Assembly: GCA_041660005.1 (NCBI GenBank)
Contig: JBAZXG010000002.1
Location: 24,356-88,355 of the forward strand
Reading direction: 5' to 3'
Origin: Patescibacteria group bacterium
GTDB taxonomy: Bacteria; Patescibacteriota; Patescibacteriia; GWA2-46-9
DNA length: 64,000 nucleotides
Each line of letters starts with the position of its first letter. Within the stretch, counting starts at the first letter, position 1. Positions 7,175-31,212 of this stretch are shown here, piece after piece. Position numbers and translations under genes: made by a program. The notes beneath the pieces were generated by a model. The model was not told the DNA's origin. It made no database searches and was given only the letters and a program-made list of their open reading frames with translations.

Positions 7175-7208
7175 AGACTAAATAATAGTTAATAAACGTT
7201 ACAGCATC

Positions 7209-9707: not shown

Positions 9708-9715
9708 AAACGTAT

Positions 9716-10856: not shown

Positions 10857-11144
10857 AGATAAATGGTATTAACCCCAGGGCAAAGCCCTTGACTCCTCAA
10901 TCCGCCAGTTGGCGGATTGATAGAGGTAGCGCGGCAAGGCCGCGGGGTATTAAACCCTTTGATGCCTGCGTCGCTCGAAAATGCACATTGCTACGTGCAC
11001 TTTACTCGCTATCCTCAGCAATAAAATCTGATGTCTTTAACTCGCTTATTTTAGCACAAAATTGCGGTCTGTGAAAGTCGTAAAATTTGGATTTATTTGG
11101 GGGAGGTGCCGGCGCGGGAAACGTCGACACCACCCCCAAAGGTC

Positions 11145-11516
11145 TTACTCGATGCTCTCGCTCTGGGCGAGCTCCTCGAGCGCGGCTCGACGAATCGGGT
11201 CTTCGCCCATTTGATGGAGCGCCGCGAGGAACTCCTCAAAAGTGGGCTTCAGCCACGAGACGAGAACTTTGAGACTGGTCCGCTTCTCGTTGGTCTTGGC
11301 GATCCAACCGCCGGTCCTTACAAACTCGCGCTCGATCCTGGATCGAGCCTCATCTTCGGTCATCTGCCCGAGGCATCGGGTGAGTAGGCCTTCTGCGGTG
11401 ACGGCATGAAGGCAATAACCTCCTCCACAACCCCGACGCTTCTGGTAAATGAACCGAACACTGCCGATGTTGACCGGCGTTACAGCCACTGCGGCTGCTT
11501 CTGCATTTCTTACCAT
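11145..11516 (-). CDS. hypothetical protein, GC-rich (possible horizontally acquired)
   Basis: 123 aa ORF, codon-consistent, GC much higher than neighbours, flanked by GC-rich hairpins. Confidence 0.35.
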   Translation of the reverse strand: MVRNAEAAAVAVTPVNIGSVRFIYQKRRGCGGGYCLHAVTAEGLLTRCLGQMTEDEARSRIEREFVRTGGWIAKTNEKRTSLKVLVSWLKPTFEEFLAALHQMGEDPIRRAALEELAQSESIE

Positions 11517-11742
11517 TCAGAGACTCCTCTTCCTCTTTATCCTCTTATCCGAACTGACTTGGGATGCTTGCTTGTGCGGCAAGCTGCGACCCTCCTTCCC
11601 AATTAGAATGCACAGACTCTACAATAAAACACATAAAAAAGCAAGCCTGCCGAGACGTCGGGACTTTCTTTCGTGGTGAACGAAGTCAATTACCCCGCCC
11701 CAAAGGGGACGGGGTATGCGCCTGAATGCTATCACTCCCTTT

Positions 11743-12444
11743 TTACAAATTTCGTTCAATCAAACGAACTAACTCTGGATTTCGAGCGACAAACTTCTGC
11801 ACGAGCATATGAAAAAAACCTCGCGTTGCGGCTTCCTTTCTTAAATACAGTAACCCAAATAATGCCGTTAGCATGGCACCAAGAAAATCATTGATGATGT
11901 CCCACATGGTGTCTCGTAAACTACCATGTTGCATCATCGAACCAATCACACTATCGGTAGAGAATTCAAATATTTCCCAAAGCGCACCAATAGCCAACCC
12001 GAAAGTGCAGGAAAAAATTGCGATGAGGTACGGTTTTGCTATCAGCCGGCCAGAAACCCATAAGGTATAAAGAATAATAAAGCCGGCGAAACCGAAGAAG
12101 ACACCAGACAGCGAGTGCAGTAGCACATCCCACCACCAAAACCGCGCGTAAAAATTTGCCCCGTCGCCAAGAAAAGTAGCGGCGTATACAAAACCAATAA
12201 GCCCTAATTCAAATTCAATAGGTAAGTGGATGCGAACATTTCGGCTGATAAATGCCGGCAGCAAGGTAAGGAAATAGGCCAGCGAAGAAATGAAAAGAAT
12301 GTGCCAGTACCCTCGCCACAATGTATAGCCAATGGCGATTACTAGGGAGGTTTGCAAGATGAGCGACAGAATATATTGAATGCGCTCGGCGACGGTCAAT
12401 TGGTTATGGTATTGCATAGGAAGATACATTATACATTCCAACAA
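11743..12444 (-). CDS. polytopic membrane protein (YjdF/DUF2238-like)
   Basis: 233 aa with about 6 TM helices, FWWWD motif. Confidence 0.45.
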   Translation of the reverse strand: MLECIMYLPMQYHNQLTVAERIQYILSLILQTSLVIAIGYTLWRGYWHILFISSLAYFLTLLPAFISRNVRIHLPIEFELGLIGFVYAATFLGDGANFYARFWWWDVLLHSLSGVFFGFAGFIILYTLWVSGRLIAKPYLIAIFSCTFGLAIGALWEIFEFSTDSVIGSMMQHGSLRDTMWDIINDFLGAMLTALFGLLYLRKEAATRGFFHMLVQKFVARNPELVRLIERNL

Positions 12445-12798
12445 CCTTAAAATGAAAGCGTAGCAAGGCGCGGCTAGTTACCACAACACCCAAGGAACCT
12501 GCGAGTGAAAAAATTATGAGTACGTCGGCCGTAGAATCCCGACGCCATCATTGTTAATACGTCAATGAATCGGGATCCCGACTTCTCGTCGGGACTTCTG
12601 GGTAGCTTTCCTGTTTCTACTATTTGCAATATGCTATTTGCTATTCCTGTTTTCCTTAACGTCTTGCTCGCGAGTGAAAAAATTATGAGTACGTCGGCCG
12701 TAGAACTTTGTTCGCTGACGCACGGAATAATTTTTGAACGACCTCATGCTGAGGGAAAGGAATATTAAGGAAAACCGGGCGGTTTTCCTTAAAGTCTT

Positions 12799-12814
12799 GC
12801 CGGAGGAGGGACTC
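12799..12814 (-). repeat. direct copy of 16 nt of the tRNA-Leu 3' end (lacks CCA), start of family-1 element (12799..12940)
   Basis: gccggaggagggactc identical to 12975..12990 in tRNA-Leu. Confidence 0.75.
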
Positions 12815-12941
12815 CGCTTCGCTAGAACCCTCGTCGCTACGCTCCTCTCTGACACCTTGCGGTTTCAGTACTTCCACTGCGGGAAACCTCCCGGTTTCCC
12901 GACCCCATCCCCGGGTTCGAGTCCTGCTCCAAATACCAAAA

Positions 12942-12970
12942 AGTCCCCGACGAAATCGTCAGGGACTTTT
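12942..12970. terminator. hairpin AGTCCC..GGGACT plus T-run between family-1 element and tRNA-Leu
   Basis: aagtccccgacgaaatcgtcagggactttttg. Confidence 0.55.
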
Positions 12971-13057
12971 TGGTGCCGGAGGAGGGACTCGAACCCTCAA
13001 GCCCTTGCGGGCACAGGGTCCTAAACCCTGCGTGTATACCAGTTCCACCACCCCGGC
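12971..13057 (-). tRNA. tRNA-Leu (anticodon TAG), class II with long variable arm
   Basis: manual fold: GCCGGGG acceptor, anticodon loop TT-TAG-GA, variable arm GCCCGCAAGGGC, TTCGAGT T-loop, CCA encoded. Confidence 0.85.
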
Positions 13058-13154
13058 TCACGAAGCATCAGTATATCCTGACGCTCAAAAGACGACAATT
13101 ATTTTTCGTTATTAAAAAAGTGTATACTGAAAAGATTAATTTTTTAACAAAACT

Positions 13155-16046
13155 ATGGGCAGAGCAACGCTTTTTGTTCCGATCACCGTTCTTTTTGTTT
13201 CGCTTTTCGTTTCAGGACCAACCAGAGCAGCAGCCGTTGACCACATTGTTATTTCAAAAATACAAACCGCAGGGGTGAGCACCAAAGATGAATTTATCGA
13301 TCTCTACAACCCTACTGACGCTCCTGTTTCGCTTATTGGCTGGCGACTTAGCAAACAAACAGCAAGCGGCACCTCTTCAAACCTCCTCACCACCTTTCCC
13401 GACATAACACTGGCATCGCACGCAACTCTGCGAATTGCGCACCCAGACTACGCAGGGAGTACTCCTGCTGACGCAACTTATACAACACAAAACTCCATTG
13501 CGGCAGACAACACCGTTACGCTCTATGGCGACGCTGGCATCACCATTATTGACCGCGTCGGTTTTGGCAGCGCTACCATATATGAAGGCGCTGCAACCGT
13601 AAACCCTACGGACGGAGCACAAATTGAACGCCACTTTGTAAACGGAGCAATAGTTGACACTGACAATAATGCAGCGGACTTTGAACTTTCTACCACCGCA
13701 CCACCCGAAACTCAACCAACCCCCGAACCAGCGCCGACTTTGAACGGGAGTCCAGCAAACACCTCCGGTGGGAGCGGCATGCCAATAGTTGACGTAGGAA
13801 CGGTGCGCATCAATGAATTTGTGTCTGACCCGGCAGACAATGATGTTGAATGGATCGAGCTCTACAACACTAGGACCACTGATGTACCCATTGATGGTTG
13901 GACCATAGAAGACGGCTCAGGACAGGCAACGAAACTGTCTGGAATAATTTCGGCGAACGGATTTTTTATCGTAAGCCAACCCAAAGGTCAACTCAATAAT
14001 AGTGGTGACGCCATCACCCTCAAAGCCACATCCGGGAACATTGTTGACGCTATTGCTTACGGGGACTGGAAAAATAATAAAGACAACGCACCGAGCGCCA
14101 ACGACCCGAATGCAGTGGCGCGATCAAAAGATGGCCTCTCAACTGGCAACGATGCAGTAGATTTTGCTCTTACCACAACTCCAACGAAAGGGGTCAGTAA
14201 TACCATTGGATCACCATCAGCAACAACACCAACGGAGACAACAGCAACGGGTTTGATATTAAACGAACTATTCCCGAATCCACTTGGTAGTGATGAGGGA
14301 GAATTCGTTGAGCTCCTGAACACCGCGACAAAACCCATTGACGTTGCGGGCTGGGAACTGGCAACCGCAGACGGACAGCACTATTGGATAGAGCAAGCTG
14401 ATTTTGCCGCTACACTACTCCAACCAAACACGTATTTTATTATCCCAAAAACAATATCGGGGCTCACTATGAAAAACCAGGGCGGAGACATGGTGCGCCT
14501 CATTGCTCCCGGCAAAACCCGGGCAAGCGACACCGCACCGTATAGTGAAGATGCGCTTGAAAATGAAAGTTATAGTTTGACGTCAAATGGCTGGCTCTGG
14601 AGTAAAAATCCAACTCCTGGGGCAAGTAACAGTGTTGTTCAAAAAGACAAACCGCCAGTACCTATCCTGTATGTACCAAGAGAAGCGGCACTTTTTGAAG
14701 CGGTGGTGCTGAGCGCTGAAGACAGTTTTGATCCAGAACGTGAACCACTGACGTACGCTTGGTCTCTAGGAGACGGCTCGAATGCCACGGGCGAAATCGT
14801 CGTGTACACCTTTCCGCACGCTGGCGTTTTTCCAATTACGCTTACCGTGAGCGATGACCATGATAACCAACAAAAAATAGAACGAAATATTGCCATCGGC
14901 ACTATAACCACTTCCACTGGACGAGTCGCTGGCGCGCATGCAAGCACTACTGCGGTTAAAATAAACGAACTTTTGCCAAACCCCAATACAAATGAAGACG
15001 AATGGATAGAGCTCTACAACGACAGCATGGTCGATGTTTCTCTCGCTGGATGGAGTATAGAAGACGCGAGCAGTAAGCGCTTCACTTTTTCAAGTAATGC
15101 TACAATGCCTGCTTTTTCCTATTTAGTCATTCCTAAAACCCAAACACACATTGCTTTAAACAACGATAAAGATACGCTAACGCTTTCAACTCCTGAAGGC
15201 GACGAAGCTGATACAGTCAGCTACGCTAAAAGTTTCAGTGGCTCCTCTTTGGCGCGCAACACAGACAGTGGCTGGCAGTGGACAAGCGATCCAACGCCAG
15301 GCAGTGAAAACACCATAGAAGCAACCGCAAACATACTGACCGCCGGCAACCTGACGGTTGCAGGAACCGTACTTGCAGAACCAGGAACGATTGGCGCGCA
15401 CACGCTGTACCTCGCGCGCATTGGCGCAAGCAGCGGCATAGAGCAACTGCGCGTAGATCTTGACCCCAGCATTGAAACATCCTTTGAACGGGGGGACGAA
15501 TTTCAAATGAGCGGGACACTGCGTACCGTCGCCAGTGAACCACGATTACAAGTTACCGACGAAGCCGCAATTTCCTTGATTGGTCACGACGAAACGTCCA
15601 TAGTACCCATATCCTACACAGCTGATGCCACAAAACTCGGCGTCCTCATGAGTGCGAGTGGAACCGTCGGCAAAGGAAACAGTAATGGCTTCATCTTAGA
15701 GCTGCCCCAAGACGAAACGGTACGCATCATTATGCCAATCGGCGTAACACCAAAGCGTCCGTATGCTATCGGCAGTTCTCTCACGGTAAATGGCATACTC
15801 AGCACAACAAGCGCAGGCTTCCGGCTTCTGGTACGCGACGCCAATGATCTCATCCCTGAAACACCGGCACCAGCAGCGACACTAACCTCAAGCGTTCCAA
15901 CGACCACAGCGAAACCGTGGTCAGAAAATTATCTCATGGTAAGTGCACTGGGATGCTTGTTCATTGCGGGTGCTCTTGCCTACCGTTGGTGGCGCAGCTC
16001 TCCCGCATTGCCATTCGACATCATCGACGAAGAAGAAACAGTCTAA
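13155..16046 (+). CDS. large surface protein with four lamin-tail domains (LTD), a PKD domain and a C-terminal TM anchor
   Basis: 963 aa; signal peptide; four repeats of INEF/LNEL..P.P....DEWIELYN...V...GW LTD signature; PKD-like DPEREPLTYAWSLGDGS; C-terminal hydrophobic anchor + RWWRSS. Confidence 0.8.
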   Translation: MGRATLFVPITVLFVSLFVSGPTRAAAVDHIVISKIQTAGVSTKDEFIDLYNPTDAPVSLIGWRLSKQTASGTSSNLLTTFPDITLASHATLRIAHPDYAGSTPADATYTTQNSIAADNTVTLYGDAGITIIDRVGFGSATIYEGAATVNPTDGAQIERHFVNGAIVDTDNNAADFELSTTAPPETQPTPEPAPTLNGSPANTSGGSGMPIVDVGTVRINEFVSDPADNDVEWIELYNTRTTDVPIDGWTIEDGSGQATKLSGIISANGFFIVSQPKGQLNNSGDAITLKATSGNIVDAIAYGDWKNNKDNAPSANDPNAVARSKDGLSTGNDAVDFALTTTPTKGVSNTIGSPSATTPTETTATGLILNELFPNPLGSDEGEFVELLNTATKPIDVAGWELATADGQHYWIEQADFAATLLQPNTYFIIPKTISGLTMKNQGGDMVRLIAPGKTRASDTAPYSEDALENESYSLTSNGWLWSKNPTPGASNSVVQKDKPPVPILYVPREAALFEAVVLSAEDSFDPEREPLTYAWSLGDGSNATGEIVVYTFPHAGVFPITLTVSDDHDNQQKIERNIAIGTITTSTGRVAGAHASTTAVKINELLPNPNTNEDEWIELYNDSMVDVSLAGWSIEDASSKRFTFSSNATMPAFSYLVIPKTQTHIALNNDKDTLTLSTPEGDEADTVSYAKSFSGSSLARNTDSGWQWTSDPTPGSENTIEATANILTAGNLTVAGTVLAEPGTIGAHTLYLARIGASSGIEQLRVDLDPSIETSFERGDEFQMSGTLRTVASEPRLQVTDEAAISLIGHDETSIVPISYTADATKLGVLMSASGTVGKGNSNGFILELPQDETVRIIMPIGVTPKRPYAIGSSLTVNGILSTTSAGFRLLVRDANDLIPETPAPAATLTSSVPTTTAKPWSENYLMVSALGCLFIAGALAYRWWRSSPALPFDIIDEEETV

Positions 16047-16085: not shown

Positions 16086-16946
16086 ATGCAACGGATCACA
16101 AAAGCAGTTATACCGGCGGCTGGGTTTGGCACCCGGTTCCTCCCGGCCACAAAAGCCCAACCGAAAGAAATGCTGACGCTCGTGGATAAACCGGTCATCC
16201 AATACGTTGTGGAAGAAGCGGTTGCTTCAGGCATTAAAGACATTATTATCATTACCGGACAGAGTAAGCGTGCCATAGAAGACCACTTCGACCGTAACCT
16301 AGAGCTTGAATCACGTCTGCGCCGGGAAGGTAAGCGCCGCGCTTTGAAAGAAATTCAGCGCCTGGCTCACCTTGCCAACTTTATCTATATTCGTCAGCCC
16401 GAACCTTTGGGTGACGGACACGCAGTACTCGAGGCCTACAGTCTTTTGAAAAACGAACCGTTCGCCATGCTCTATGGCGACGAAATCATTCAGAGTGATT
16501 CTCCGTGCCTCGCAGAAGTGATTAAAGTGTATGAAGAATTTTTGGCGCCTGTGATTACGGTCACCAAAGTGCCGCGTGATCACGTAACGCGCTTTGGTAT
16601 CATTGGTGGTGAGCAAATTCGCCCAAACCTGCATCGCGTAACGAAATTTATCGAAAAACCATCGCTTGCTAACGCACCGTCCCGTTTGGCTAATATCGGC
16701 AGAGCCATTATCACGCCTGGCCTTTTGAAAGTTCTGCGCGGCATTAAAGTTAAGCCAGGAAAAGAGCTGCGCGTGGCGGACGCCTTTGAACCCTATCGTA
16801 AAAAACATCCGCTCTATGCCTACACGCACAGCGGTACGCGACTTGATTGCGGTGACCAAATTGGATTTTTAAAAGCGACGGTCGAAATGGGGCTCATGCA
16901 CGCCGAACTGAAAGCACCGTTTCGCCAATATCTTAAAAAAGTATGA
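16086..16946 (+). CDS. galU: UTP--glucose-1-phosphate uridylyltransferase
   Basis: AVIPAAGFGTRFLPATKAQPKEML N-terminal signature, 286 aa. Confidence 0.85.
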   Translation: MQRITKAVIPAAGFGTRFLPATKAQPKEMLTLVDKPVIQYVVEEAVASGIKDIIIITGQSKRAIEDHFDRNLELESRLRREGKRRALKEIQRLAHLANFIYIRQPEPLGDGHAVLEAYSLLKNEPFAMLYGDEIIQSDSPCLAEVIKVYEEFLAPVITVTKVPRDHVTRFGIIGGEQIRPNLHRVTKFIEKPSLANAPSRLANIGRAIITPGLLKVLRGIKVKPGKELRVADAFEPYRKKHPLYAYTHSGTRLDCGDQIGFLKATVEMGLMHAELKAPFRQYLKKV

Positions 16947-18310
16947 TGAAAAGGTTACGCACTCTACTTCCCTTACTGCTTCTGTTGTTGGCGCTCCCTG
17001 CCGTTGGGCTCGGGTGTCAACAACGCACTGCTCCAAAACCAGTGACGTTACAATACTGGCGTGTCTTCGATTCAGAAGACACCATGAAAGACATTATTGC
17101 CGCTTACCATAAATTACACCCCTACGTTAGCATAGAATACAAAAAGCTTCGGTTTGAGGAGTACGAACAGCTGATGCTAGAAGCGCTGGCAGAAGACCGA
17201 GGGCCTGATCTGTTTTCAATCCACAACACCTGGATTGGAAAGTATCAATCAAAAATTGCCCCACTACCAGCAACCACAACCGTTGCCGAAGCAACCACAA
17301 CTGGTGACAACCCCGTCTACGCCACTAAGACAACTGCCACTGCCACGGTATCGAATATCCGCCAGGCATTCATTGATGCGGTTGGTAAAGACGTCATCCG
17401 AAAAGATACTGACAAGAAAGAAAAAATCTACGGTCTTCCTCTGGGCGTTGATACACTGGCACTTTTCTATAACCGCGACATCTTAAATAGCGCCGGTATT
17501 GCAACCCCTCCCGAGGACTGGACGCAATTCCTGGCAGCCGTTTCCCGCATTACAAAACTTAGCGAAGCGGGCCAAATTGTGGTGGCAGGAGCATCGCTCG
17601 GAACTGCCAGCAACGTTCCACGTTTTTCCGATATTCTCTCCCTCCTTATGATGCAAAACGGGGCAAACATGACTGATGATAACGGCTACGCCACGTTTCA
17701 ACTCGTTCCCTCGCAATTCCCTAATAAATCATTTGTACCCGGACTTGAGGCGTTACGCTTCTATACCGACTTTGCGAATCCAACAAAAGAAGCCTATACC
17801 TGGAACAAGGAAATGCCCGATGGTCTTGAGGCGTTCTTGAGTGGACGCACAGCGTTTTTTTTCGGCTACAGCTACCAAATCCCCACTATTCGCTCACGTG
17901 CACCACAGTTGAACTGGGACATTGCTCCTGTACCGCAAGCTGATGCAGTGAACAACCGGGTCAACTTTGCAAATTACTGGATAGAGACTGTTTCAAAGAA
18001 ATCAACGAAACAAGATATCGCTTGGGACTTTTTGCAATTCGCCGCGCGAGCAGAGCAGGACCGCTCGTACCTGGCGGCTTCCGGCAAACCACCCGCACTG
18101 CGCTCACTCATCGACGAACAAAAGGGTGACCCCATGCGCGAACCTTTTGCCTCTGAGCTCCTGACTTCCCGCAGCTGGTACCGTGGCGTTGATCCGGCAG
18201 CAGCTGAGTCAGCTCTTGGTGATCTCATTACCGCAGTTGTTGATGGCACCACCGACTTAAAAAATGCCGTAGGAAACGCCGTGGAACGTATTAACCAAAC
18301 CATTAAGTAG
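16943..18310 (+). CDS. ABC transporter extracellular solute-binding lipoprotein (family 1, sugar-type)
   Basis: 455 aa, lipobox LGC, SBP_bac_1-like composition; start overlaps galU stop. Confidence 0.7.
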   Translation: MMKRLRTLLPLLLLLLALPAVGLGCQQRTAPKPVTLQYWRVFDSEDTMKDIIAAYHKLHPYVSIEYKKLRFEEYEQLMLEALAEDRGPDLFSIHNTWIGKYQSKIAPLPATTTVAEATTTGDNPVYATKTTATATVSNIRQAFIDAVGKDVIRKDTDKKEKIYGLPLGVDTLALFYNRDILNSAGIATPPEDWTQFLAAVSRITKLSEAGQIVVAGASLGTASNVPRFSDILSLLMMQNGANMTDDNGYATFQLVPSQFPNKSFVPGLEALRFYTDFANPTKEAYTWNKEMPDGLEAFLSGRTAFFFGYSYQIPTIRSRAPQLNWDIAPVPQADAVNNRVNFANYWIETVSKKSTKQDIAWDFLQFAARAEQDRSYLAASGKPPALRSLIDEQKGDPMREPFASELLTSRSWYRGVDPAAAESALGDLITAVVDGTTDLKNAVGNAVERINQTIK

Positions 18311-18315: not shown

Positions 18316-18750
18316 ATGCACAAAGTTCGCGGTCATTTTTTGTTCGGTACGGCAATACTCAGTATGCTCATGCTACCAATTTTAGTTAGCGCAGCTGGCC
18401 TTATTCCAGCCAACTGTACCGCGATCGGCGCATCAAACTGTGGCCTGCTTGATTTCCTTCAACTCGGCAACAATATCTATGAGTGGCTCTTTGGTATTCT
18501 CGGCAGCGTAACGCTCGTCATTTTTATGTATGGTGGGCTCGTTTGGCTCACTTCGGCAGGCAATGCGCAGCGCGTCGAGCAGGGAAAAAAAATCTTTGAA
18601 GGCGCGCTCATCGGCTTAGCTCTTATTTTTAGTTCCTGGCTCATTGTGAATTTTGTTGTCACCGCACTAACGGGAGGAGATTTGGAGAAACCAGCTACGA
18701 TCTTCAATCGTCCTGCGCTCGAAGCACCAGCAACACTCCCTACGCAATAG
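18316..18750 (+). CDS. VirB2/TrbC-like (T4SS-type) pilin paralog 1
   Basis: signal peptide, TM helix, loop motif YGGLVWLTSAGNAQRVEQGKK, second TM; family motif GG..WMTA.GNEE. Confidence 0.65.
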   Translation: MHKVRGHFLFGTAILSMLMLPILVSAAGLIPANCTAIGASNCGLLDFLQLGNNIYEWLFGILGSVTLVIFMYGGLVWLTSAGNAQRVEQGKKIFEGALIGLALIFSSWLIVNFVVTALTGGDLEKPATIFNRPALEAPATLPTQ

Positions 18751-18857
18751 GTTCTGCATTGACCTTTTTGTCATTCACCCTTATGCTAATAACAGCAGAA
18801 TTATATCGTAGCTGCCAACCCTTAGCTCCCACCGGGAGATCGAGAGGAGGTGATACC

Positions 18858-19250
18858 ATGAAGAAACAACTCATCAAACGACTCGCAGCAACAGGCGTCG
18901 CCATCGGCATGATGGCGCCTTTGGTTGCTTTTGCTCAGGGCAGTGACCTCAACAACTCCCTTGATCTTAATAACATCGGCAATGAACTCGGTCTCAGCCA
19001 AGAGACGAACGTTAAAATTGTCGTAGCAAGAATTATTCGCGTCCTCCTCGGCTTCCTCGGTATCGTCGCAGTATTAATCGTACTTTACGGCGGATTCCAA
19101 TGGATGACTGCAGCAGGTAACGAAGAACGCGTTTCATCCGCTCGCGCCACTTTAACGGCTGGCCTTATCGGTCTCGTTATTATTTTGAGCGCTTACGCTA
19201 TCGCTAGCTACATCATCACCACGATTCTCGACGTCACTTCGGCAAACTAA
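18858..19250 (+). CDS. VirB2/TrbC-like pilin paralog 2 (ORF track 18759..19250; start set at MKKQLIKRL after RBS GAGGAGG)
   Basis: YGGFQWMTAAGNEERVSSAR loop motif between two hydrophobic helices. Confidence 0.65.
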   Translation: MKKQLIKRLAATGVAIGMMAPLVAFAQGSDLNNSLDLNNIGNELGLSQETNVKIVVARIIRVLLGFLGIVAVLIVLYGGFQWMTAAGNEERVSSARATLTAGLIGLVIILSAYAIASYIITTILDVTSAN

Positions 19251-19329
19251 TAGTTCATTGAGTAACTAGAGAGTTAGCTACACCCCTCGCCTTTTTGGGC
19301 AGAGGGGTGTAGTATTATGTACATAAAAC

Positions 19330-19731
19330 ATGTCCTGGTCAGCACGCACAACTCTTCGAGCCCTGTCGCTTACCTTACTGTTGGCTACTGTTTTAGTCGC
19401 CGTACCGATCTTTGCCCAAACGTCAGATCCTTCGTACGGACTTAACAAAACAGCAACAGAAGCTAAACTGAACGTCAGTCAAAATTTAAATCAAGTCATC
19501 GGTGGCATCATTAAAACGACGCTCAGTATTGCGGCCATACTGTTTATGATTACCATCCTTGGTGCCGGTCAAATGTGGTTGGCCTCAGAAGGTAACGAAG
19601 AAAAAATAGAAAAGGCGCGTGGCATTATTTTTAACGCGGCAGTGGGTTTTATGATTACCTTTGGCGCCTACCTCGGCACTGATTTTATATTAAACGCAGT
19701 TTTCTCAGCAGTTGGCATTGGCAGTAAGTAA
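19330..19731 (+). CDS. VirB2/TrbC-like pilin paralog 3
   Basis: GAGQMWLASEGNEEKIEKAR motif. Confidence 0.65.
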   Translation: MSWSARTTLRALSLTLLLATVLVAVPIFAQTSDPSYGLNKTATEAKLNVSQNLNQVIGGIIKTTLSIAAILFMITILGAGQMWLASEGNEEKIEKARGIIFNAAVGFMITFGAYLGTDFILNAVFSAVGIGSK

Positions 19732-20162
19732 TGGAAAATATGAACAAAGGATTCTCTCTCGCATTTGTTACAGTAACTTCGCTCGTTTTTATTATTGCGG
19801 GCATTCAACCGTATGCGGTCAATGCAAGCGGTCCAAGTGGTCTTTCTAACCTCGTTAAAAATAGTTTCCAAGAAGCCGGCAACGCCGCAGGGCTCAAACC
19901 TAGTACTAACGACTTGTCAGTACTTGATCTCTTTGGTCTCTATGTGGCCGTAGCCCTTGGCTTCATTGGGGTTCTATTCCTTGTACAAGTAGTGCATGGC
20001 GGCATTCTATGGATGAGCGCCGGTGGCAATGAAGAACAGATTACGCACGCACGGAAAAAAATTCTAAACGCAGGCATAGGAGCAGCTATTGTTTTTGCCT
20101 GCTTCGTCTTTACCGTTTTCATTATGACGCAAATCGCAACCACGGTTGGGGTACAATTTTAA
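19731..20162 (+). CDS. VirB2/TrbC-like pilin paralog 4
   Basis: HGGILWMSAGGNEEQITHAR motif. Confidence 0.65.
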   Translation: MENMNKGFSLAFVTVTSLVFIIAGIQPYAVNASGPSGLSNLVKNSFQEAGNAAGLKPSTNDLSVLDLFGLYVAVALGFIGVLFLVQVVHGGILWMSAGGNEEQITHARKKILNAGIGAAIVFACFVFTVFIMTQIATTVGVQF

Positions 20163-20619
20163 TATGCAAAATTCTTCAAAATTCTTAACAGCGACCGCAC
20201 TCTGCTTGCTGCTCTTTGCCCCACTGGCAACCGCGCAGGCCACCACTGGTTTCCGTTCATCCTGTGACACGAATCAAATTCAAGGGTTTGGCGCAGGGTT
20301 AAGACGTGTGGCATGCGACGCTGGTCTCATATCTTCAGCTGAGGGTGGGGACTCAATCAACGAAGACACTATTATTCAAATTTTTGGGAGTGTTATAAGC
20401 TTGGTTTTTGGCTTTGTTGGAGTTGTCTTTGCGGTTTTGACCATCTATGGTGGCTACCTCTGGATGACGGCTCGCGGCAATGAAGAGCAGGTGCAGCAGT
20501 CGCAAAACTACATTCGTAACTCAGTCATTGGTATCATTATTGTGCTCGCTGCTTTCTCTATCACCCAGTTTATTATTGCGCGTCTTATTTCCGCGGTTTC
20601 CCAAACATCAGTATTATGA
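20146..20619 (+). CDS. VirB2/TrbC-like pilin paralog 5
   Basis: YGGYLWMTARGNEEQVQQSQ motif. Confidence 0.65.
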   Translation: MGYNFNMQNSSKFLTATALCLLLFAPLATAQATTGFRSSCDTNQIQGFGAGLRRVACDAGLISSAEGGDSINEDTIIQIFGSVISLVFGFVGVVFAVLTIYGGYLWMTARGNEEQVQQSQNYIRNSVIGIIIVLAAFSITQFIIARLISAVSQTSVL

Positions 20620-21029
20620 AATCACCTTCCTTGTGGAAAAGCATTGTTAACGCAGCAATCTTACTTTCCTTGCCAGCTGCTGCGGCTGCTGACACCAACA
20701 GTTCTTCTGGTTTTGAAGCAGTGCAACATAACCTCGGAGTTCTTCAAACCTTTGTCATTGGCGACCAAACACCGCAAACACCACAAGAGATTATTGCTCG
20801 CGTCATAGGCATTGCCCTTGGCCTCATTGGCATCGTCTTCGTTATTCTCATGATCTACGGTGGATACCTTTGGATGACCGCTCGCGGCAATGAAGAGCAG
20901 GTCAACAAAGCGCGAGATTTAATTATTCAATCAATTATTGGTGCTGTTATTGTCTTTCTCGCCTATTTTGTCACCGCCTTCGTCGTACAACGAGTAGGAG
21001 AAGCGGTCTTTGAACCAATTTTCTATTAA
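20616..21029 (+). CDS. VirB2/TrbC-like pilin paralog 6
   Basis: YGGYLWMTARGNEEQVNKAR motif, 18 nt identical to paralog 5 over the loop. Confidence 0.65.
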   Translation: MKSPSLWKSIVNAAILLSLPAAAAADTNSSSGFEAVQHNLGVLQTFVIGDQTPQTPQEIIARVIGIALGLIGIVFVILMIYGGYLWMTARGNEEQVNKARDLIIQSIIGAVIVFLAYFVTAFVVQRVGEAVFEPIFY

Positions 21030-21447
21030 TCATATGAGCATGAAAAAACTAGTAGCGAGCTCTCTTCTCTTTTTCGTGCTCATGGCAACAGGGGTCTCTT
21101 TTGCTTCAGCTGCTGTTGCACCACTGGACGAAATTTATCATAACTTGGGGCCGATTGCTAACACCTACGGACAGAGCTCTCTCCTGGACTCCCAAAACAC
21201 GCAACACGCACTAGTAGTGCGAGTTGCTCGAGTTATTAATGTCGCTCTTTCACTTCTCGGAATCATTTTTTTAGTACTCACCATCTACGCTGGTGCACGT
21301 TGGATGACGGCTCGAGGTAATGACGAACTAGTAACAACGGCTCGGGATACCTTACTCAATGCCCTTATTGGACTTGTTATTATTTTTGCCTCTTACGCCT
21401 TTACTACCTACCTGGTAACAAAAATTCTACAGGGAACAATTGGATAA
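21010..21447 (+). CDS. VirB2/TrbC-like pilin paralog 7
   Basis: YAGARWMTARGNDELVTTAR motif. Confidence 0.65.
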   Translation: MNQFSINHMSMKKLVASSLLFFVLMATGVSFASAAVAPLDEIYHNLGPIANTYGQSSLLDSQNTQHALVVRVARVINVALSLLGIIFLVLTIYAGARWMTARGNDELVTTARDTLLNALIGLVIIFASYAFTTYLVTKILQGTIG

Positions 21448-21455: not shown

Positions 21456-21492
21456 CAAATGCTTCGACAATAAACGCCTCACCAAGGTGTTT
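21456..21492. terminator. bidirectional intrinsic terminator between pilin array (+) and GT2 gene (-)
   Basis: aataaacgcctcaccaaggtgtttattttattttt hairpin + T-run. Confidence 0.55.
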
Positions 21493-21495
21493 ATT

Positions 21496-22248
21496 TTATT
21501 TTTGGATCTGACACCTTAACCTACGTAAACGAGGTCGTAAAAGTAGGAGTTCACGAGTATACTCTACGCTTGTACGTACAATAGGAAGTGTACTTACTGA
21601 TACTCCGACTTTCCTCTCTTCCCAAATCACCGGCACCTCAGCAATTTTTTCCTTGGTGGCCTCCGCGATGAGTAACAACTCTGAATCAAAAAACCACTGC
21701 ATACTCTTAACTTGCGGCAACAGTCTGTCCCGAGCTTGACGGGTTACTGCTTTAAAACCACAAGGTAAATCAGTAAGTTTGGTGCCAACCAACAATTGTG
21801 AAAGGAGATGGTAAGACCGAGAAATAAACTGTCGAAACAAACTTCGATGCGCGATACTGTTTGGCAAAAATCGGGAACCAACTACCACAGTTGCTCCTTT
21901 TACAAAGGCGTCGAGTGCCTTAGGCAGCGCCTCTGCAAGGTCCGCAGAAAGATCAGCGTCTGTGAAAAAATAAATATCAGCAACTGCTGCTTCCCACCCA
22001 GCGGACAGAGCTGCACCTTTACCAGCAGTCGGCAACTGAAGCAATGAAACATTGGATAACCGCCGACTTGCCGCCAGTACCAAGGATGACGACCCGTCCG
22101 TGGAGCCATTGTCAACAATAATGATTTTCCAGTTCTGTTTAAAAACATCACCACAAATTGCATGGGCTTTATGAATACTCTCAACAATAATACCCGCTTC
22201 GTTATAAGCAGGTAACACAAGAACAACCGTGGGACATTCGTTCATCAT
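21496..22248 (-). CDS. GT2 family glycosyltransferase (polyprenyl-phosphate sugar synthase-like)
   Basis: 250 aa; VVLPAYNE, IIVDNGSTDGS, DAD motif region of GT-A fold. Confidence 0.75.
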   Translation of the reverse strand: MMNECPTVVLVLPAYNEAGIIVESIHKAHAICGDVFKQNWKIIIVDNGSTDGSSSLVLAASRRLSNVSLLQLPTAGKGAALSAGWEAAVADIYFFTDADLSADLAEALPKALDAFVKGATVVVGSRFLPNSIAHRSLFRQFISRSYHLLSQLLVGTKLTDLPCGFKAVTRQARDRLLPQVKSMQWFFDSELLLIAEATKEKIAEVPVIWEERKVGVSVSTLPIVRTSVEYTRELLLLRPRLRRLRCQIQK

Positions 22249-23822
22249 AAAGGAAGAGAGAAAATAGCTCCATCGCTATCAGTATAGCGCAACCGGTAAC
22301 CAGACCGACGGAGCGCGGAAACAAGTTTTTGAGACTGATCTCTAGCGCTAATAACCAGAATGTTTGAATGTATCTCTTGCATCAAAGTCTTTAGTGGAGC
22401 GGCATCACCCTCTACTAAATTTTTCCTTGCCTCAATTACTTCAGACGCGTTTGGTAAAAACCGAGCATCCAGCCCCCACAGATATCGTACATTTTGATTA
22501 TAATAGAACAGCTGCGGAAACTCATCCCAGCGCAGATTGAAGATCAAATCTCCGGGTTCACCAACAACAGAAAGATGTTCAGCTACTGACTTGAGTGTCT
22601 GCACAGGGGAACTCGCACGAAACACCTCATAGGTCTGATAGTCATTGACAAAAAAGTAGCCACCAACGGTAACGCCAAGCAAGTAAAGCAACAAAAAAGT
22701 GGCGGTCGTTTCACGTCGGAAATTTTGCTTCATGCTCTCAAAGAGCGCTCTCCAAACACCGAGCTCTGAGAGGTAGGCTGCCCATAGACTGACTGATAAA
22801 AAACCCAACGGGACTAAATACTCAACGTAACGGCGAGAGAGCATAGTTGCAATCAAAAAAAGTACGGCCATACCAGTTGTCAAAAAACGCAAACGTCCCG
22901 AAGAGCCGACCTGACTGCCCTGAAACAACCTTTTTGGCTCTACTGATAGTGCAAAAAAACCAACCAACAAAACTACAAGAAAGGCCATGACTAAAGGCAA
23001 GATGCGAGGAAAAAGCATCGCAGGGTCTAAGGACGACCACTCTTGACCGGCCGCTGCGTTGCCGCCCGGCGCCAAAGCAATTTCAACAACCTGATACCAA
23101 TAAAAAACGACGTTCTGAGGGAACCAAGGATTTACGACAAGGCCAACCAAACTACCTGCACTAGCCGCAAAAAAACCATTAAACATTTCCCGGCTCAGTT
23201 TTTTCTCCAAGCATACTCGAACGGGCACAATGATCAAACTTGTCACCCAAAGAAGCGGCCAACCCCCATATGCCCAGACATACAATGCAGAAATGAAAAA
23301 AAGTCGCCACTGTCGGCGTTCAACCAATGCAGAGAGCCCTAAAAGATAAAAAATAAGAGACAAAGAAAGCGCTTTAACGAGATTCAGCCGAAAGAGAAAG
23401 GGCGCTGTTATGAATGCTAGTATCGTCCACCAAAAAGCACCCGGCACACGATAGCGACGTAAAACTTCGTAATAGACAACCATTGAAAGTGAAGCGAGGA
23501 GCGCTGTAGTGACCTTTATACCAGTCAGTCCACCAAGCGCCACAAATGGTGCCTCAAAAACATGCAGCAAAAAATGATGGTCGGCAAAGGACTGAGCCAG
23601 TACGGTTAGTGGCAGCCAGGTAAAATGACGTACTACCTCGCCGTGGCTTATCTGCGAGGCAAGTGCGGCATGGTAGTAAACATCTGGATCAGGAAAACCA
23701 TGGCCCCAACTAAGTAGAGCAGCAACACCGCTAACAATACTGACTAATGACGTAACAGCAAGTGCATGTCTCGAGCGAGCACCAAGCGCGCTCACGTGAA
23801 GAGCAGACAGACCGCGCTGCAT
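22245..23822 (-). CDS. polytopic membrane protein with C-terminal soluble domain (GT-C-like glycosyltransferase candidate)
   Basis: 525 aa, >10 TM helices then about 130 aa soluble domain; translationally coupled to GT2 gene. Confidence 0.45.
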   Translation of the reverse strand: MQRGLSALHVSALGARSRHALAVTSLVSIVSGVAALLSWGHGFPDPDVYYHAALASQISHGEVVRHFTWLPLTVLAQSFADHHFLLHVFEAPFVALGGLTGIKVTTALLASLSMVVYYEVLRRYRVPGAFWWTILAFITAPFLFRLNLVKALSLSLIFYLLGLSALVERRQWRLFFISALYVWAYGGWPLLWVTSLIIVPVRVCLEKKLSREMFNGFFAASAGSLVGLVVNPWFPQNVVFYWYQVVEIALAPGGNAAAGQEWSSLDPAMLFPRILPLVMAFLVVLLVGFFALSVEPKRLFQGSQVGSSGRLRFLTTGMAVLFLIATMLSRRYVEYLVPLGFLSVSLWAAYLSELGVWRALFESMKQNFRRETTATFLLLYLLGVTVGGYFFVNDYQTYEVFRASSPVQTLKSVAEHLSVVGEPGDLIFNLRWDEFPQLFYYNQNVRYLWGLDARFLPNASEVIEARKNLVEGDAAPLKTLMQEIHSNILVISARDQSQKLVSALRRSGYRLRYTDSDGAIFSLPL

Positions 23823-31075: not shown

Positions 31076-31128
31076 AAACTATTCGTCCGCCGTCGTTAAC
31101 CACCTACGCTAAGGCTTCGGCGGTCAAG

Positions 31129-31212
31129 AACTATGGCGGACAGCCTCAACTCAAAACGTCTGGCGTAAGCCAGCCGCCGTTGGAACTGTGGCTGGCTCGC
31201 CAGCCGTAACTT
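31129..31212. repeat. family-3 double-hairpin repeat (second copy, see 4396..4480)
   Basis: aactatggcggacagcc...gccgtaactt about 90% identical to the copy beside tRNA-Arg. Confidence 0.7.

What the first reader, a model, noticed from the sequence alone, without database searches (positions are those of the whole stretch)
18316..21447. Seven tandem VirB2/TrbC-like pilin paralogs
Seven consecutive small genes encode proteins with the following layout: signal peptide, hydrophobic helix, the loop motif GG(Y/I)LWMTA(R/A)GNEEQV..AR, and a second helix. This is the topology of T4SS/conjugative pilins, not type IV (PilA) pilins. Paralogs 5 and 6 are nearly identical across the loop, while the N-terminal mature regions are highly divergent. 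This is consistent with antigenic or functional diversification. A partial terminator hairpin lies between genes 2 and 3 (about 19286..19320), which suggests graded expression. No VirB4/VirD4 is in the window, so the array may be unlinked from the secretion ATPase genes. The array is flanked by glycosyltransferases and an ABC solute-binding protein.
Basis: partly seen in the sequence, partly recalled or inferred. Interest (0 to 1): 0.6.

Follow-up and report, generated by a model that had tools for sequence, protein, structure and literature searches.

The report
Seven-gene T4SS-type pilin array, Patescibacteria
Seven neighbouring small genes in an ultrasmall (Patescibacteria, Uhrbacteria-like) bacterium encode divergent VirB2-like "type IV secretion pilins"; such arrays are already described for this phylum, but this one shows a conserved division of labour and a fixed partnership with a solute-binding lipoprotein gene.

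Summary
Seven tightly packed + strand genes (18316-21447) encode proteins with a signal peptide, a variable region, a two-helix hairpin and a conserved loop. All seven hit Pfam PF18895 (T4SS_pilin); six reach the curated cut-off.

The host is a Patescibacteria MAG of class ABY1, Uhrbacteria-like. NCBI already names these proteins "pilin". A 2025 survey reported 441 such "VirB2 arrays" of 2-11 genes, and the array in Southlakia is essential. This is therefore a new member of a known kind.

What I add:
- The seven paralogs are old. They are 1:1 positional orthologs in two relatives (40-75% identity, against 21-42% between paralogs).
- In 69 of 70 ABY1 genomes with enough sequence, a type-1 pilin gene (usually Cys-bearing) starts directly after an SBP_bac_1 gene.
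- Pilin 2 is the most conserved. It has its own upstream region and a strong 3' stem-loop that recurs across the class. This fits a major subunit and graded expression.
- No VirB4/VirD4/VirB6 was found in the window or within 10 kb in 77 relatives. A published table lists VirB4 in the syntenic sister genome.
- The neighbouring 525-aa protein is predicted to be an oligosaccharyltransferase-like GT-C enzyme.

Pilus formation itself remains inferred.

The parts
18316..18750 (+). Pilin 1 (144 aa), 'type 1'. It starts 6 nt after the SBP stop codon. It has a Cys pair in the exposed N-terminal region and a 25-aa C-terminal tail.
   Evidence: PF18895 at 47.3 bits. Orthologs in relatives are 57% and 53% identical. 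In 73 of 75 ABY1 loci the SBP-adjacent pilin is the best match to this paralog. Type-1 pilins are Cys-rich and other pilins mostly are not.
18759..18857 (+). Intergenic region upstream of pilin 2. It holds a promoter-like site TTGACC-17-TATGCT (18759-18787), a short CTCCC/GGGAG stem and a strong Shine-Dalgarno GGAGGTGA.
   Evidence: Consensus scan. The TTGACC box, the stem and SD+ATG are conserved in relatives, while the spacing upstream changes by non-triplet indels. Promoter function is inferred only.
18858..19250 (+). Pilin 2 (130 aa from the conserved ATG), 'type 2', candidate major subunit.
   Evidence: PF18895 at 27.2 bits and TrbC PF04956 at 21.2 bits nearly full length. It is the most conserved paralog: 75% and 68% identity to orthologs, core 86% and 84%. 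A type-2 pilin is present in nearly every ABY1 array. AF2 gives a confident hairpin.
19277..19313 (+). Strong intercistronic stem-loop after pilin 2, with no U-tract.
   Evidence: -32.7 kcal/mol, z = -5.2. Sequence and position are conserved in L004 and L007, z = -6.5 and -4.6. Across ABY1, 63% of type-2 genes have a hairpin of -15 kcal/mol or stronger within 80 nt downstream, against 5% of other internal pilin genes.
19330..19731 (+). Pilin 3 (133 aa), the most divergent member.
   Evidence: PF18895 at 20.3 bits, below the 26.6 cut-off. It aligns with the others, scores 125 bits on my own family HMM, and has orthologs at 56% and 47% identity.
19731..20162 (+). Pilin 4 (143 aa). Its start overlaps the stop codon of pilin 3 by 1 nt.
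   Evidence: PF18895 at 26.6 bits. Orthologs at 49% and 40% identity.
20164..20619 (+). Pilin 5 (151 aa from ATG 20164; a TTG at 20146 is also open). It has Cys residues in the exposed region.
   Evidence: PF18895 at 32.6 bits. NCBIfam NF045849 'pilin-like conjugal transfer protein' at 43.9 bits, above its cut-off of 40. The 151-aa form is the one called in public records.
20616..21029 (+). Pilin 6 (137 aa). It overlaps pilin 5 by 4 nt.
   Evidence: PF18895 at 40.6 bits. It is 100% identical to a public protein that NCBI names 'MAG: pilin [Patescibacteria group bacterium]'. Its loop-coding DNA is unusually similar to that of pilin 5.
21034..21447 (+). Pilin 7 (137 aa from ATG 21034; a TTG at 21010 is also open).
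   Evidence: PF18895 at 29.0 bits. Orthologs at 63% and 57% identity.
21469..21505 (.). Terminator-like hairpin plus T-run. It closes the array and faces the convergent GT2 gene.
   Evidence: Terminator scan. 78% of last genes in ABY1 arrays have a comparable hairpin.
16943..18310 (+). SBP_bac_1 solute-binding protein (455 aa) with a lipoprotein-type signal (…AVGLGC). It is the conserved upstream partner of pilin 1.
   Evidence: Pfam and NCBIfam. In 69 of 70 GTDB loci with at least 1 kb downstream of the ortholog, a pilin gene starts within -150 to +350 nt of its stop. The lipobox is read from the sequence.
16086..16946 (+). GalU-like UTP-glucose-1-phosphate uridylyltransferase. It overlaps the SBP start by 4 nt.
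   Evidence: TIGR01099 at 310.6 bits, just below its 326.8 cut-off. It lies directly upstream of the SBP in 31 of 65 ABY1 loci.
21496..22248 (-). GT2 glycosyltransferase. Its weak matches are to polyprenyl-phosphate sugar transferases (ArnC/PpgS/AglJ-like). It is a context gene and may be part of a glycosylation module.
   Evidence: Pfam PF00535 and NCBIfam weak hits. A GT2 gene lies within 10 kb downstream of the SBP in 18 of 46 ABY1 loci.
22245..23822 (-). 525-aa polytopic membrane protein with a predicted GT-C fold, most like oligosaccharyltransferases. Context gene.
   Evidence: No Pfam or NCBIfam hit. AF2 pLDDT 87, pTM 0.89. Foldseek top hits are PglB, STT3 and AglB (E = 7e-8, TM 0.55-0.67), then ALG9/12, DPY19 and AftA. 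Remote homologs sit beside GT2 inside other ABY1 arrays (hhalign 98.7%).

Best explanation
The seven genes are the chromosomal pilin set of a Patescibacteria-type type IV secretion system, which is related to the MPF-FATA class. The ATPase and channel genes lie elsewhere in the genome.

Shown or predicted here: each product has a signal-peptide-like N-terminus and two hydrophobic helices joined by a conserved loop. Inferred from the known topology of VirB2-like pilins: after Sec export and signal-peptidase cleavage, both ends lie outside the cell and the WMTAxGNEE loop faces the cytoplasm.

Inferred by analogy with solved VirB2/TraA pili, and with the PrgF model of pCF10: subunits are extracted from the membrane onto a VirB6-like platform and stacked into a tube. 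The conserved loop would line the lumen. The variable N-terminal segments would cover the surface.

The paralogs are not interchangeable:
- Pilin 2 is probably the major subunit. It is the most conserved, has its own upstream region and strong ribosome-binding site, and is followed by a conserved stem-loop. That stem-loop would attenuate read-through or stabilise its mRNA, so pilin 2 would be made in excess over pilins 3-7.
- Pilin 1 is co-transcribed with a solute-binding lipoprotein and carries a disulfide-capable ectodomain. It is probably a specialised (tip, base or adaptor) subunit.
- Pilins 3-7 are probably minor subunits whose faster-evolving exposed parts tune contact with the host cell.

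The whole apparatus most likely serves the host-dependent (epibiotic) lifestyle rather than conjugation.
For: Family assignment:
- All seven hit PF18895, six at or above the cut-off. Pilin 5 passes NCBIfam's 'pilin-like conjugal transfer protein' model.
- NCBI already names the identical protein 'pilin'.
- The family is very large: 69,626 clusters at 50% identity.

Topology:
- N-terminal hydrophobic segments, -3/-1 candidate sites and hydrophobic stretches flanking the loop; a confident AF2 hairpin for pilin 2.

Link to T4SS, from the literature:
- PF18895 genes lie near virB4 in 1135 of 1948 Patescibacteria assemblies. 441 arrays of 2-11 genes were reported (PMC12102498; Table S3).
- The pilin array inside the Southlakia T4SS cluster is essential for epibiotic growth (PMC10633639; PMC12857230).
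- PrgF of pCF10, a monoderm VirB2-like protein, is essential for conjugation (10.64898/2025.12.18.695078).
- Table S1 lists VirB4 in the sister genome that carries the orthologous seven-gene array.

Division of labour:
- 1:1 positional orthology.
- Pilin 2 is the most conserved, and N-terminal parts are less conserved than cores in six of the seven paralogs.
- The SBP-to-pilin-1 coupling holds in 69 of 70 loci, and the adjacent pilin is type 1 in 73 of 75. Type 1 is Cys-rich.
- The stem-loop after pilin 2 is conserved and class-wide: 63% against 5%.
Against: - No T4SS ATPase or channel gene was found in 64 kb of window, or within 10 kb of the array in 77 related genomes. That phmmer screen had no Patescibacteria VirB4 as a positive control.
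- Direct similarity to characterised pilins is not demonstrable. PF04956 stays below threshold. hhalign against R388 TrwL gives 1.8% probability. Profile tests against PrgF are negative.
- No filament has been seen for any PF18895 protein.
- The promoter call is a consensus match at background frequency: 14 found against 10.1 expected.
- The roles proposed for pilins 1 and 2 rest on conservation and gene order only.
Confidence: 0.6

Rival explanations
1. The proteins belong to the T4SS but do not form an extended pilus. They stay in or just above the membrane as a short stalk or channel lining, enough to cross the thin envelope of an ultrasmall monoderm cell. Seven different subunits would build one heteromeric ring or stalk.
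For: Seven stable, non-interchangeable orthologous slots look more like the parts list of one complex than like alternative filaments. Tight packing suggests co-expression. The literature treats a pilus in Patescibacteria only as a possibility (PMC12857230).
Against: The class-wide stem-loop after type 2 implies unequal stoichiometry, which is typical of a major subunit plus minor ones. Array size varies from 4 to 11 among ABY1 genomes, and types 3-7 are not stable beyond close relatives. That argues against a fixed heteromer.
Confidence: 0.2
2. The array is an SBP-dependent uptake or surface module that works without any T4SS. The two-helix proteins would form a membrane pore or scaffold for the solute-binding lipoprotein. 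The name 'T4SS pilin' would then be misleading for the ABY1 branch.
For: The SBP gene is followed by a pilin gene in 69 of 70 ABY1 loci, over 39-81% SBP identity. No ABC permease lies next to this SBP, and no T4SS gene lies within 10 kb. Sugar-related neighbours (GalU, GT2, GT-C) recur.
Against: The same Pfam family sits beside virB4, trsD and virB3 in other Patescibacteria classes (Table S3) and is essential inside the Southlakia T4SS cluster. Table S1 lists VirB4 in the sister genome with the orthologous array. In about 17 loci only pilin 1 stays with the SBP, and the rest of the array lies 4.5-6 kb away. So the coupling concerns one subunit, not the whole array.
Confidence: 0.1
3. The array is an antigenic or host-range variation system. 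Cells would use one variant pilin at a time, or shuffle segments among paralogs, to escape recognition or to switch hosts, as proposed for VirB2 paralogs of Bartonella and Anaplasma.
For: N-terminal exposed regions diverge faster than the cores in six of the seven paralogs. Paralogs 5 and 6 show a short gene-conversion-like tract over the loop. In relative G, nucleotide identity is 86% and third-position identity is 77%, against 32-50% between orthologs. The published survey raises this idea.
Against: Each slot has a 1:1 ortholog in genomes whose housekeeping proteins are only 81-89% identical. So the set is old and stable. No invertible promoter, silent cassette or long repeat lies in or near the array. 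The converted tract covers the conserved loop, not the variable surface part.
Confidence: 0.07
4. The genes encode unrelated small membrane proteins (holin, bacteriocin or immunity-like) that resemble pilins only because they are hydrophobic.
Against: Those hits are all far below their cut-offs; Holin_9, for example, has E = 0.54. PF18895 is the top hit for all seven. The conserved polar loop motif is family-specific. No lysis or bacteriocin genes are nearby.
Confidence: 0.03

Closest known systems
VirB2-like pilin arrays of Patescibacteria (PF18895/PF04956). 441 arrays in 383 assemblies (Quinonero-Coronel et al. 2025, PMC12102498). Includes the six-pilin essential array of Ca. Southlakia epibionticum (Wang et al. 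2023, PMC10633639) and the 'Sec secreted array' of TM7x.
   Same: Same Pfam family and same phylum. The tandem set of sequence-divergent paralogs fits the published range: 7 genes here with mean identity 31% and maximum 42%, against published values of 2-11 genes, mean 25% and maximum 54%. Each has a signal peptide plus a two-helix core. No relaxase is nearby. The orthologous array of the sister genome GCA_002793855.1 belongs to the dataset of that survey.
   Different: Class ABY1 rather than Saccharimonadia or Microgenomatia, where arrays were reported as most abundant. The array is not in the virB4 cluster. It is fixed downstream of an SBP lipoprotein gene, often with GalU. It resolves into two conserved subfamilies (type 1, type 2) plus variable members. 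A class-wide stem-loop follows type 2. I found none of these four points in the papers I could search.
Canonical VirB2/TrbC/TraA conjugative pilins of diderm T4SS (Pfam PF04956; e.g. R388 TrwL, Agrobacterium VirB2, F TraA).
   Same: Small size. A leader peptide followed by two hydrophobic helices joined by a short polar loop. The proposed topology is the same, with both ends outside and the loop inside.
   Different: Sequence similarity is sub-threshold only: best 21.2 bits against a 27.9 cut-off, and hhalign against TrwL gives 1.8%. The exposed region before helix 1 is much longer (25-45 aa). There are seven paralogs instead of one. The host is a monoderm. No VirB5, VirB7, VirB9 or VirB10 context is present.
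PrgF of Enterococcus pCF10 and the VirB2-like proteins newly proposed for Gram-positive conjugative plasmids (ter Beek et al., bioRxiv 10.64898/2025.12.18.695078).
   Same: Monoderm host. MPF-FATA-related machinery: the published VirB4 phylogeny places the Patescibacteria clade next to MPF-FATA. The two-helix hairpin has a charged loop that is predicted to line a pilus lumen.
   Different: PrgF has no signal peptide and no N-terminal extension. It is a single essential gene located next to virB6/virB4. The sequence relationship is not robust here: phmmer gives E of 1.5e-5 or weaker to some ABY1 pilins, but the family profile scores negative and hhalign gives 8%.
Amplified VirB2 paralogs in Bartonella, Anaplasma and Rickettsia virulence T4SS (as cited in PMC12102498 and PMC2653234).
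   Same: Several divergent VirB2 copies in tandem. Surface variation is the proposed driver.
   Different: Those are PF04956 members in diderm pathogens of eukaryotes. They are thought to vary for immune evasion. Here the copies are stable orthologous slots in an environmental monoderm.

Membership tests
Pfam PF18895 T4SS_pilin (Patescibacteria/monoderm VirB2-like pilin) | Whole-protein score at or above the curated gathering score (26.6 bits) | tested here: met
   Six of seven meet it: 47.3, 27.2, 26.6, 32.6, 40.6 and 29.0 bits. Pilin 3 scores 20.3 bits (E = 5.7e-4), below the cut-off, but aligns throughout with the others.
Pfam PF18895 T4SS_pilin (Patescibacteria/monoderm VirB2-like pilin) | Layout: cleavable signal peptide, outside segment, helix, short polar loop, helix, short outside tail | tested here: met
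   Hydropathy segments and -3/-1 candidate sites for the seven proteins, with the second helix of gene 3 and the signal segment of gene 6 below the cut-off. AF2 hairpin with pLDDT above 90 for pilin 2. This is prediction only; no SignalP or experiment.
Patescibacteria 'VirB2 array' as defined in PMC12102498 | Two to eleven pilin genes in tandem or separated by one non-pilin gene, with low identity between members | tested here: met
   Seven contiguous genes with mean identity 31% and maximum 42%. Published values are mean 25% and maximum 54%.
Patescibacteria 'VirB2 array' as defined in PMC12102498 | Host genome is Patescibacteria and carries the Patescibacteria-clade VirB4 | not testable with these tools
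   The host is Patescibacteria. Only 64 kb of its 238-kb contig is visible, and no VirB4 is in it. Table S1 lists VirB4 as present in the sister genome with the orthologous array.
Patescibacteria 'VirB2 array' as defined in PMC12102498 | Location near virB4 (true for 1135 of 1948 assemblies; frequent, not obligatory) | tested here: not met
   No VirB4, VirD4, VirB6 or VirB3 was found by Pfam in the window, in precomputed Pfam lists within 10 kb in relatives, or by phmmer with pCF10 and R388 seeds in the window and the related loci held at that point (no positive control).
Canonical VirB2/TrbC pilin (Pfam PF04956) | Score at or above the gathering cut-off (27.9 bits), or significant profile similarity to a characterised VirB2 | tested here: not met
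   Best scores are 21.2 bits (pilin 2), 14.8 (pilin 5) and 13.4 (pilin 7). hhalign of the family profile against R388 TrwL gives 1.8% probability. No pilin appears among PDB sequence hits.
Canonical VirB2/TrbC pilin (Pfam PF04956) | Fold match to solved conjugative pilins | tested here: inconclusive
Canonical VirB2/TrbC pilin (Pfam PF04956) | Polymerises into an extracellular pilus on a VirB6/VirB4 machine | not testable with these tools
   Needs multimer modelling with the genome's VirB6, or imaging and biochemistry.
PrgF-type VirB2-like protein of Gram-positive MPF-FATA systems | Detectable relationship to PrgF and a position next to virB6/virB4 | tested here: inconclusive
   phmmer with PrgF hits some ABY1 pilins at E = 1.5e-5 to 1e-2. 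The family HMM scores PrgF negatively and hhalign gives 8%. Pfam does not place PrgF in PF18895. No virB6 is nearby.
Type IV (PilA-type) pilin | Class III leader with G|F-T/S-L-I-E and a single N-terminal hydrophobic helix | tested here: not met
   The motif is absent from all seven. Most show three hydrophobic stretches, not one. The PilT gene at 4686-5726 belongs to a separate system.
Holin / bacteriocin-like small membrane proteins | HMM assignment to such a family | tested here: not met
   Only Holin_9 at E = 0.54 (11 bits; cut-off 25.3) for pilin 7.
GT-C glycosyltransferase, oligosaccharyltransferase-like (for the neighbour at 22245-23822) | Polytopic GT-C fold with an acidic motif in the first external loop and a C-terminal soluble domain | tested here: met
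   AF2 pLDDT 87. Foldseek gives PglB, STT3 and AglB at E = 7e-8 to 2e-5, probability 1.00. Invariant residues include D46, H50, E260, R330 and W431-D432. Catalytic activity and acceptor are unknown.

The most novel reading that the evidence does not exclude
In class ABY1 the pilin array is not just a spare-parts list for a distant T4SS. It is a conserved surface module together with its neighbours. A lipoprotein SBP is co-expressed with a disulfide-bearing type-1 pilin that docks it to a filament or conduit. That structure is built mainly of type-2 pilin and decorated by variable minor pilins. The components may be glycosylated through the neighbouring GalU, GT2 (lipid-linked sugar) and OST-like GT-C route. 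Such a structure would capture sugars or other metabolites at, or from, the host cell surface. It would be the first case of a VirB2-type filament coupled to a solute-binding protein, and the first glycosylated T4SS pilin.
Probability: 0.12. Interest if true: 0.8.

Novelty: new member of a known kind. Interest (0 to 1): 0.4.

Why it matters
Patescibacteria make up a large share of bacterial diversity and appear to live on other cells. In the one species tested genetically, the T4SS and its pilin array are essential for that lifestyle, yet nobody knows what the pilins build or move.

This locus does not change the picture. It does give concrete handles:
- a candidate major subunit (type 2) to model, tag or image;
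- a candidate specialised subunit (type 1) with a fixed genetic partner, the SBP;
- a conserved RNA stem-loop that predicts unequal expression;
- a possible glycosylation route next door.

These turn the open question [quoted passage not shown] into specific experiments and co-modelling jobs.

Tried and rejected
2. Sequence link to solved pilins. A profile search of PDB sequences found only spurious matches of the WxT..GN motif to designed 'Pizza' propellers.
3. Link to R388 TrwL and pCF10 PrgF. hhalign and hmmsearch were not significant. The phmmer hits of PrgF are probably driven by composition. Pfam does not put PrgF in PF18895.
4. Search for T4SS genes in the window. The two large family-less ORFs (613 aa at 47975-49816; 514 aa at 116-1660) have no Walker A motif and no Pfam or NCBIfam hit; the 613-aa ORF also has no PHROG hit. 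The T2SSE ATPase at 4686-5726 is PilT (428 bits), not VirB11 (38 bits).
5. Walking along the source contig (238 kb at NCBI). Only short identical Logan/JGI contigs could be fetched. They are 100% identical to the window, so they give no microdiversity.
6. Possible link between the DGR in the window and the pilins. No repeat is shared between the array and the DGR template. Rejected.
7. N-glycosylation sequons in the exposed regions. By eye, they are present in several window pilins but not conserved in the orthologs. I do not use this as evidence.
8. The genes filling the 4.5-6 kb gap inside split arrays. They are housekeeping-like (HTH_25, methyltransferase, UPF0102) plus GT2 and GT-C, not T4SS genes.
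9. A guessed DOI for Wang et al. pointed to an unrelated paper. The correct record is PMC10633639.
10. Rfam. No known RNA family covers the stem-loop.

Full report
**1. What is there**

Seven + strand ORFs fill 18316-21447 with almost no spacing (sequence). Genes 3/4, 5/6 and (with TTG starts) 4/5 and 6/7 touch or overlap. The only real spacers are 108 nt before gene 2 and 79 nt after it.

The products (130-151 aa with the best-supported starts) align over a common core. The consensus is YGGxxWMTAxGNEExVxxAR, and five columns are invariant. Paralog identity is 21-42%, mean 31%. The DNA encoding the loop is found as a six-copy repeat at 410-475 nt spacing.

Most members have an N-terminal hydrophobic segment (gene 6 falls below the hydropathy cut-off). 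All have small residues at -3/-1 candidate sites, and each has hydrophobic stretches on both sides of the loop, though the second is below the cut-off in gene 3. AlphaFold2 models pilin 2 as signal helix, loose linker and a two-helix hairpin (52-84, 89-129) with pLDDT above 90 in the hairpin.

**2. Family**

All seven proteins have Pfam PF18895 (T4SS_pilin) as their best hit. Six reach the gathering score. Pilin 3 is sub-threshold at 20.3 bits. Three also give sub-threshold TrbC/VirB2 (PF04956) matches, the one for pilin 2 being nearly full length. NCBIfam's 'Mbov_0395 family pilin-like conjugal transfer protein' model is passed by pilin 5 and approached by pilins 2 and 6. No holin or bacteriocin family scores meaningfully, and no PilA-type leader is present.

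A profile of these proteins and their database relatives finds 69,626 clusters at 50% identity with E of 1e-3 or better, among 1.84 billion representatives. This is a very large family.

Direct similarity to characterised pilins could not be shown:
- hhalign against R388 TrwL gives 1.8% probability.
- Profile tests against pCF10 PrgF are negative.

The assignment 'VirB2-like' thus rests on three things: the curated Pfam family, the shared topology, and the published genomic association of the family with virB4.

**3. Organism and public record**

Pilin 6 is 100% identical to a protein that NCBI names 'MAG: pilin [Patescibacteria group bacterium]', on a 238-kb contig. The closest named relatives are Candidatus Uhrbacteria, which is class ABY1 in the taxonomy used by PMC12102498.

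The window is ordinary chromosome: GyrA, RNase III, NusB, NusA, H+-PPase, RNase HII and a Liv-type ABC system. It also has a mobile-looking stretch at 43-58 kb.

**4. Comparative anatomy**

- *Stable slots.* The block LTD/PKD protein, GalU-like, SBP and seven pilins is syntenic in Uhrbacteria CG10_48_11 (L004) and GCA_041675205.1 (L007). The seven slots are 1:1 orthologous. Diagonal identities are 49-75% and 40-68%, against 21-42% off the diagonal. Housekeeping proteins of the same genomes are 81-89% identical. The paralogs are therefore old, stable and evolving faster than housekeeping genes. The N-terminal parts change faster than the cores in six of the seven paralogs.
- *SBP coupling.* I used the SBP as a probe against one genome per GTDB species. 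This returned 80 loci with 39-81% identity, all apparently ABY1-type lineages (Uhr-, Falkow-, Kuenen-, Kerfeld- and Buchananbacteria; several records carry implausible submitter labels). With an HMM built from the pilins, 69 of 70 loci with at least 1 kb downstream have a pilin gene starting within -150 to +350 nt of the SBP stop. The 46 loci with at least 9 kb downstream carry 4-11 pilins, median 7.
- *Type 1 and type 2.* The SBP-adjacent pilin is the best match to window pilin 1 in 73 of 75 loci, and a pilin-2 type is present in nearly every array. Types 3-7 are not traceable beyond close relatives. Type-1 pilins usually carry cysteines in the exposed part, some with long Cys-rich extensions. 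Of the other pilins, 216 of 329 have no cysteine.
- *Split arrays.* In about 17 loci, pilin 1 stays with the SBP while the remaining six or seven pilins lie 4.5-6 kb away, beginning with the type-2 gene.
- *Stem-loop.* The stem-loop after gene 2 is conserved in sequence and position in L004 and L007, with z-scores of -6.5 and -4.6. Across ABY1, 63% of type-2 genes have a hairpin of -15 kcal/mol or stronger within 80 nt of the stop. The figure is 5% for type-1 and other internal pilin genes, and 78% for last genes. The spacer before gene 2 keeps a TTGACC box, a short stem and a strong Shine-Dalgarno sequence.
- *Gene conversion.* Paralogs 5 and 6 share unusually similar loop-coding DNA within a genome. 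In W, nucleotide and third-position identities are 79% and 59%. In G they are 86% and 77%. Orthologs show 32-50% at third positions. This points to short-tract gene conversion.

**5. Neighbours**

Upstream lie a GalU-like enzyme and the SBP, whose N-terminus ends in a lipoprotein-type …GLGC. Downstream and convergent lie a GT2 enzyme, with weak similarity to polyprenyl-phosphate sugar transferases, and a 525-aa membrane protein with no family hit. The AF2 model of that protein (pLDDT 87) matches GT-C glycosyltransferases, with the oligosaccharyltransferases PglB, STT3 and AglB on top.

This GT2/GT-C pair is absent from L004 and L007. In Uhrbacteria RIFCSPLOWO2_01_FULL_47_24 a GT2 gene and a 528-564-aa Pfam-less protein lie beside the array; I did not confirm that protein as a GT-C homolog. 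Remote homologs of the GT-C protein (hhalign 98.7%) sit beside a GT2-sized gene (confirmed as GT2 in L020) inside the split arrays.

Because housekeeping genes share that gap, the proximity may be inherited synteny rather than function.

**6. Link to a secretion machine**

No VirB4, VirD4, VirB6, VirB3 or VirB11 is present:
- not in the window by Pfam or NCBIfam;
- not in the precomputed Pfam lists within 10 kb of the arrays in relatives;
- not by phmmer with pCF10 and R388 components against all ORFs of the window and the related loci held at that point. I had no Patescibacteria VirB4 as a positive control.

The T2SSE ATPase at 4686-5726 is PilT. The genome beyond the window could not be fetched.

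The published survey lists VirB4 as present in the sister genome GCA_002793855.1. It also documents unlinked pilin genes in other genomes, for example Uhrbacteria GCA_000994165.1, with VirB4 at CDS 3 and VirB2 at CDS 584.

**7. Literature**

- PMC12102498 reports VirB2-like pilins in 1,948 VirB4-positive assemblies, near virB4 in 1,135 of them. It reports 441 arrays of 2-11 genes with mean identity 25%.
- PMC10633639 shows that the T4SS cluster of Southlakia, including its pilins, is essential for epibiotic growth. It lacks recognisable coupling and relaxase proteins.
- PMC12857230 calls the possible pilus of a monoderm 'intriguing' and speculates about a conduit for uptake.
- A December 2025 preprint shows that PrgF of pCF10 is a VirB2-like protein essential for conjugation.
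- None of the texts I searched mentions the SBP coupling, the type-1/type-2 split, the stem-loop or the GT-C neighbour.

**8. Interpretation**

The most likely reading (0.6) is a heterogeneous pilin set for a distant T4SS. Pilin 2 would be the major subunit, pilin 1 an SBP-linked specialised subunit, and pilins 3-7 variable minor subunits. Expression would be graded by the stem-loop.

Shown or predicted here: family membership, predicted topology, gene order, orthology, conservation patterns, RNA structure and the absence of nearby T4SS genes. Inferred: export and cleavage, polymerisation, the roles of individual paralogs, and the effect of the stem-loop.

The rivals are:
- a short non-pilus stalk (0.2);
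- a T4SS-independent SBP module (0.1);
- antigenic variation (0.07);
- unrelated membrane proteins (0.03).

**9. Verdict**

The finding is correct and well interpreted, but the kind of locus is already described. It is a new member of a known kind.

The value added is a set of specific, testable features of the ABY1 version. The most novel reading not excluded is an SBP-coupled, possibly glycosylated VirB2-type surface structure for nutrient capture. I give it a probability of about 0.12.

Noticed in passing
window 50030-52983 (minus strand): A diversity-generating retroelement. A 126-nt repeat occurs at 51538-51663 (template) and 52078-52203 (variable copy, at the 3' end of the 300-aa ORF 52081-52983). 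Thirteen of 15 mismatches fall at adenines of the template. The reverse transcriptase is split into two ORFs (50517-51167 and 50030-50431), so it may be frameshifted.
   Followed up: partly
window 54910-55029 (minus strand): A full-length match to the Rfam LOOT RNA motif (RF03000; 90.7 bits against a gathering score of 46.4). It lies between a 338-aa membrane/DUF5780-like ORF and a serine recombinase gene.
   Followed up: no
window 43400-58300: A mobile-looking stretch. It holds a ParB-N6/N4 DNA methylase, a 613-aa protein with no family, the DGR, a large serine recombinase (55086-56540) and an AAA_21/OLD-like ATPase. It ends at tRNA-Ser (58190-58279).
   Followed up: partly
window 3500-4570, 12490-13060, 31120-31540, 43500-44100: Families of 40-90-nt repeats with 73-95% identity lie next to four of the five tRNA genes, and also at 43.5-44.1 kb where no tRNA is called (families D3-D7, D10, D11, D19, D20). 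Their origin is unknown.
   Followed up: no
window 20440-20500 and 20850-20910; L007 pilins 5 and 6: A short tract of concerted evolution between paralogs 5 and 6 over the loop-coding DNA. In the relative L007, 44 consecutive nucleotides are identical between the two genes.
   Followed up: partly
proteins P0089-P0234, e.g. P0205 (1775 aa, 16 matched stretches): Many library proteins contain 2-16 pilin units in one polypeptide. They could be true fusions. They could also be arrays read through because of a different genetic code or gene-calling errors.
   Followed up: no
L009-L011 (Uhrbacteria RIFCSPLOWO2_01_FULL_47_24), 6188-12225: The pilin array there is interrupted by two nucleotidyltransferase/HEPN toxin-antitoxin-like pairs and two 23S_rRNA_IVP genes. 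Some of its pilins carry long Cys-rich N-terminal domains.
   Followed up: no
window 13155-16046: A 963-aa surface protein with four lamin-tail domains, a PKD domain and a C-terminal membrane anchor lies just upstream of GalU-SBP. It is syntenic in the close relatives and is a possible adhesin.
   Followed up: no
window 116-1660 (minus strand): A 514-aa polytopic membrane protein with no Pfam or NCBIfam hit. Its layout (many helices plus a C-terminal soluble part) resembles the GT-C protein at 22245-23822.
   Followed up: no
window 4686-5726 (minus strand): A PilT/PilU-family type IVa pilus retraction ATPase (TIGR01420, 428 bits). The organism therefore also has type IV pilus machinery, separate from the array.
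   Followed up: yes
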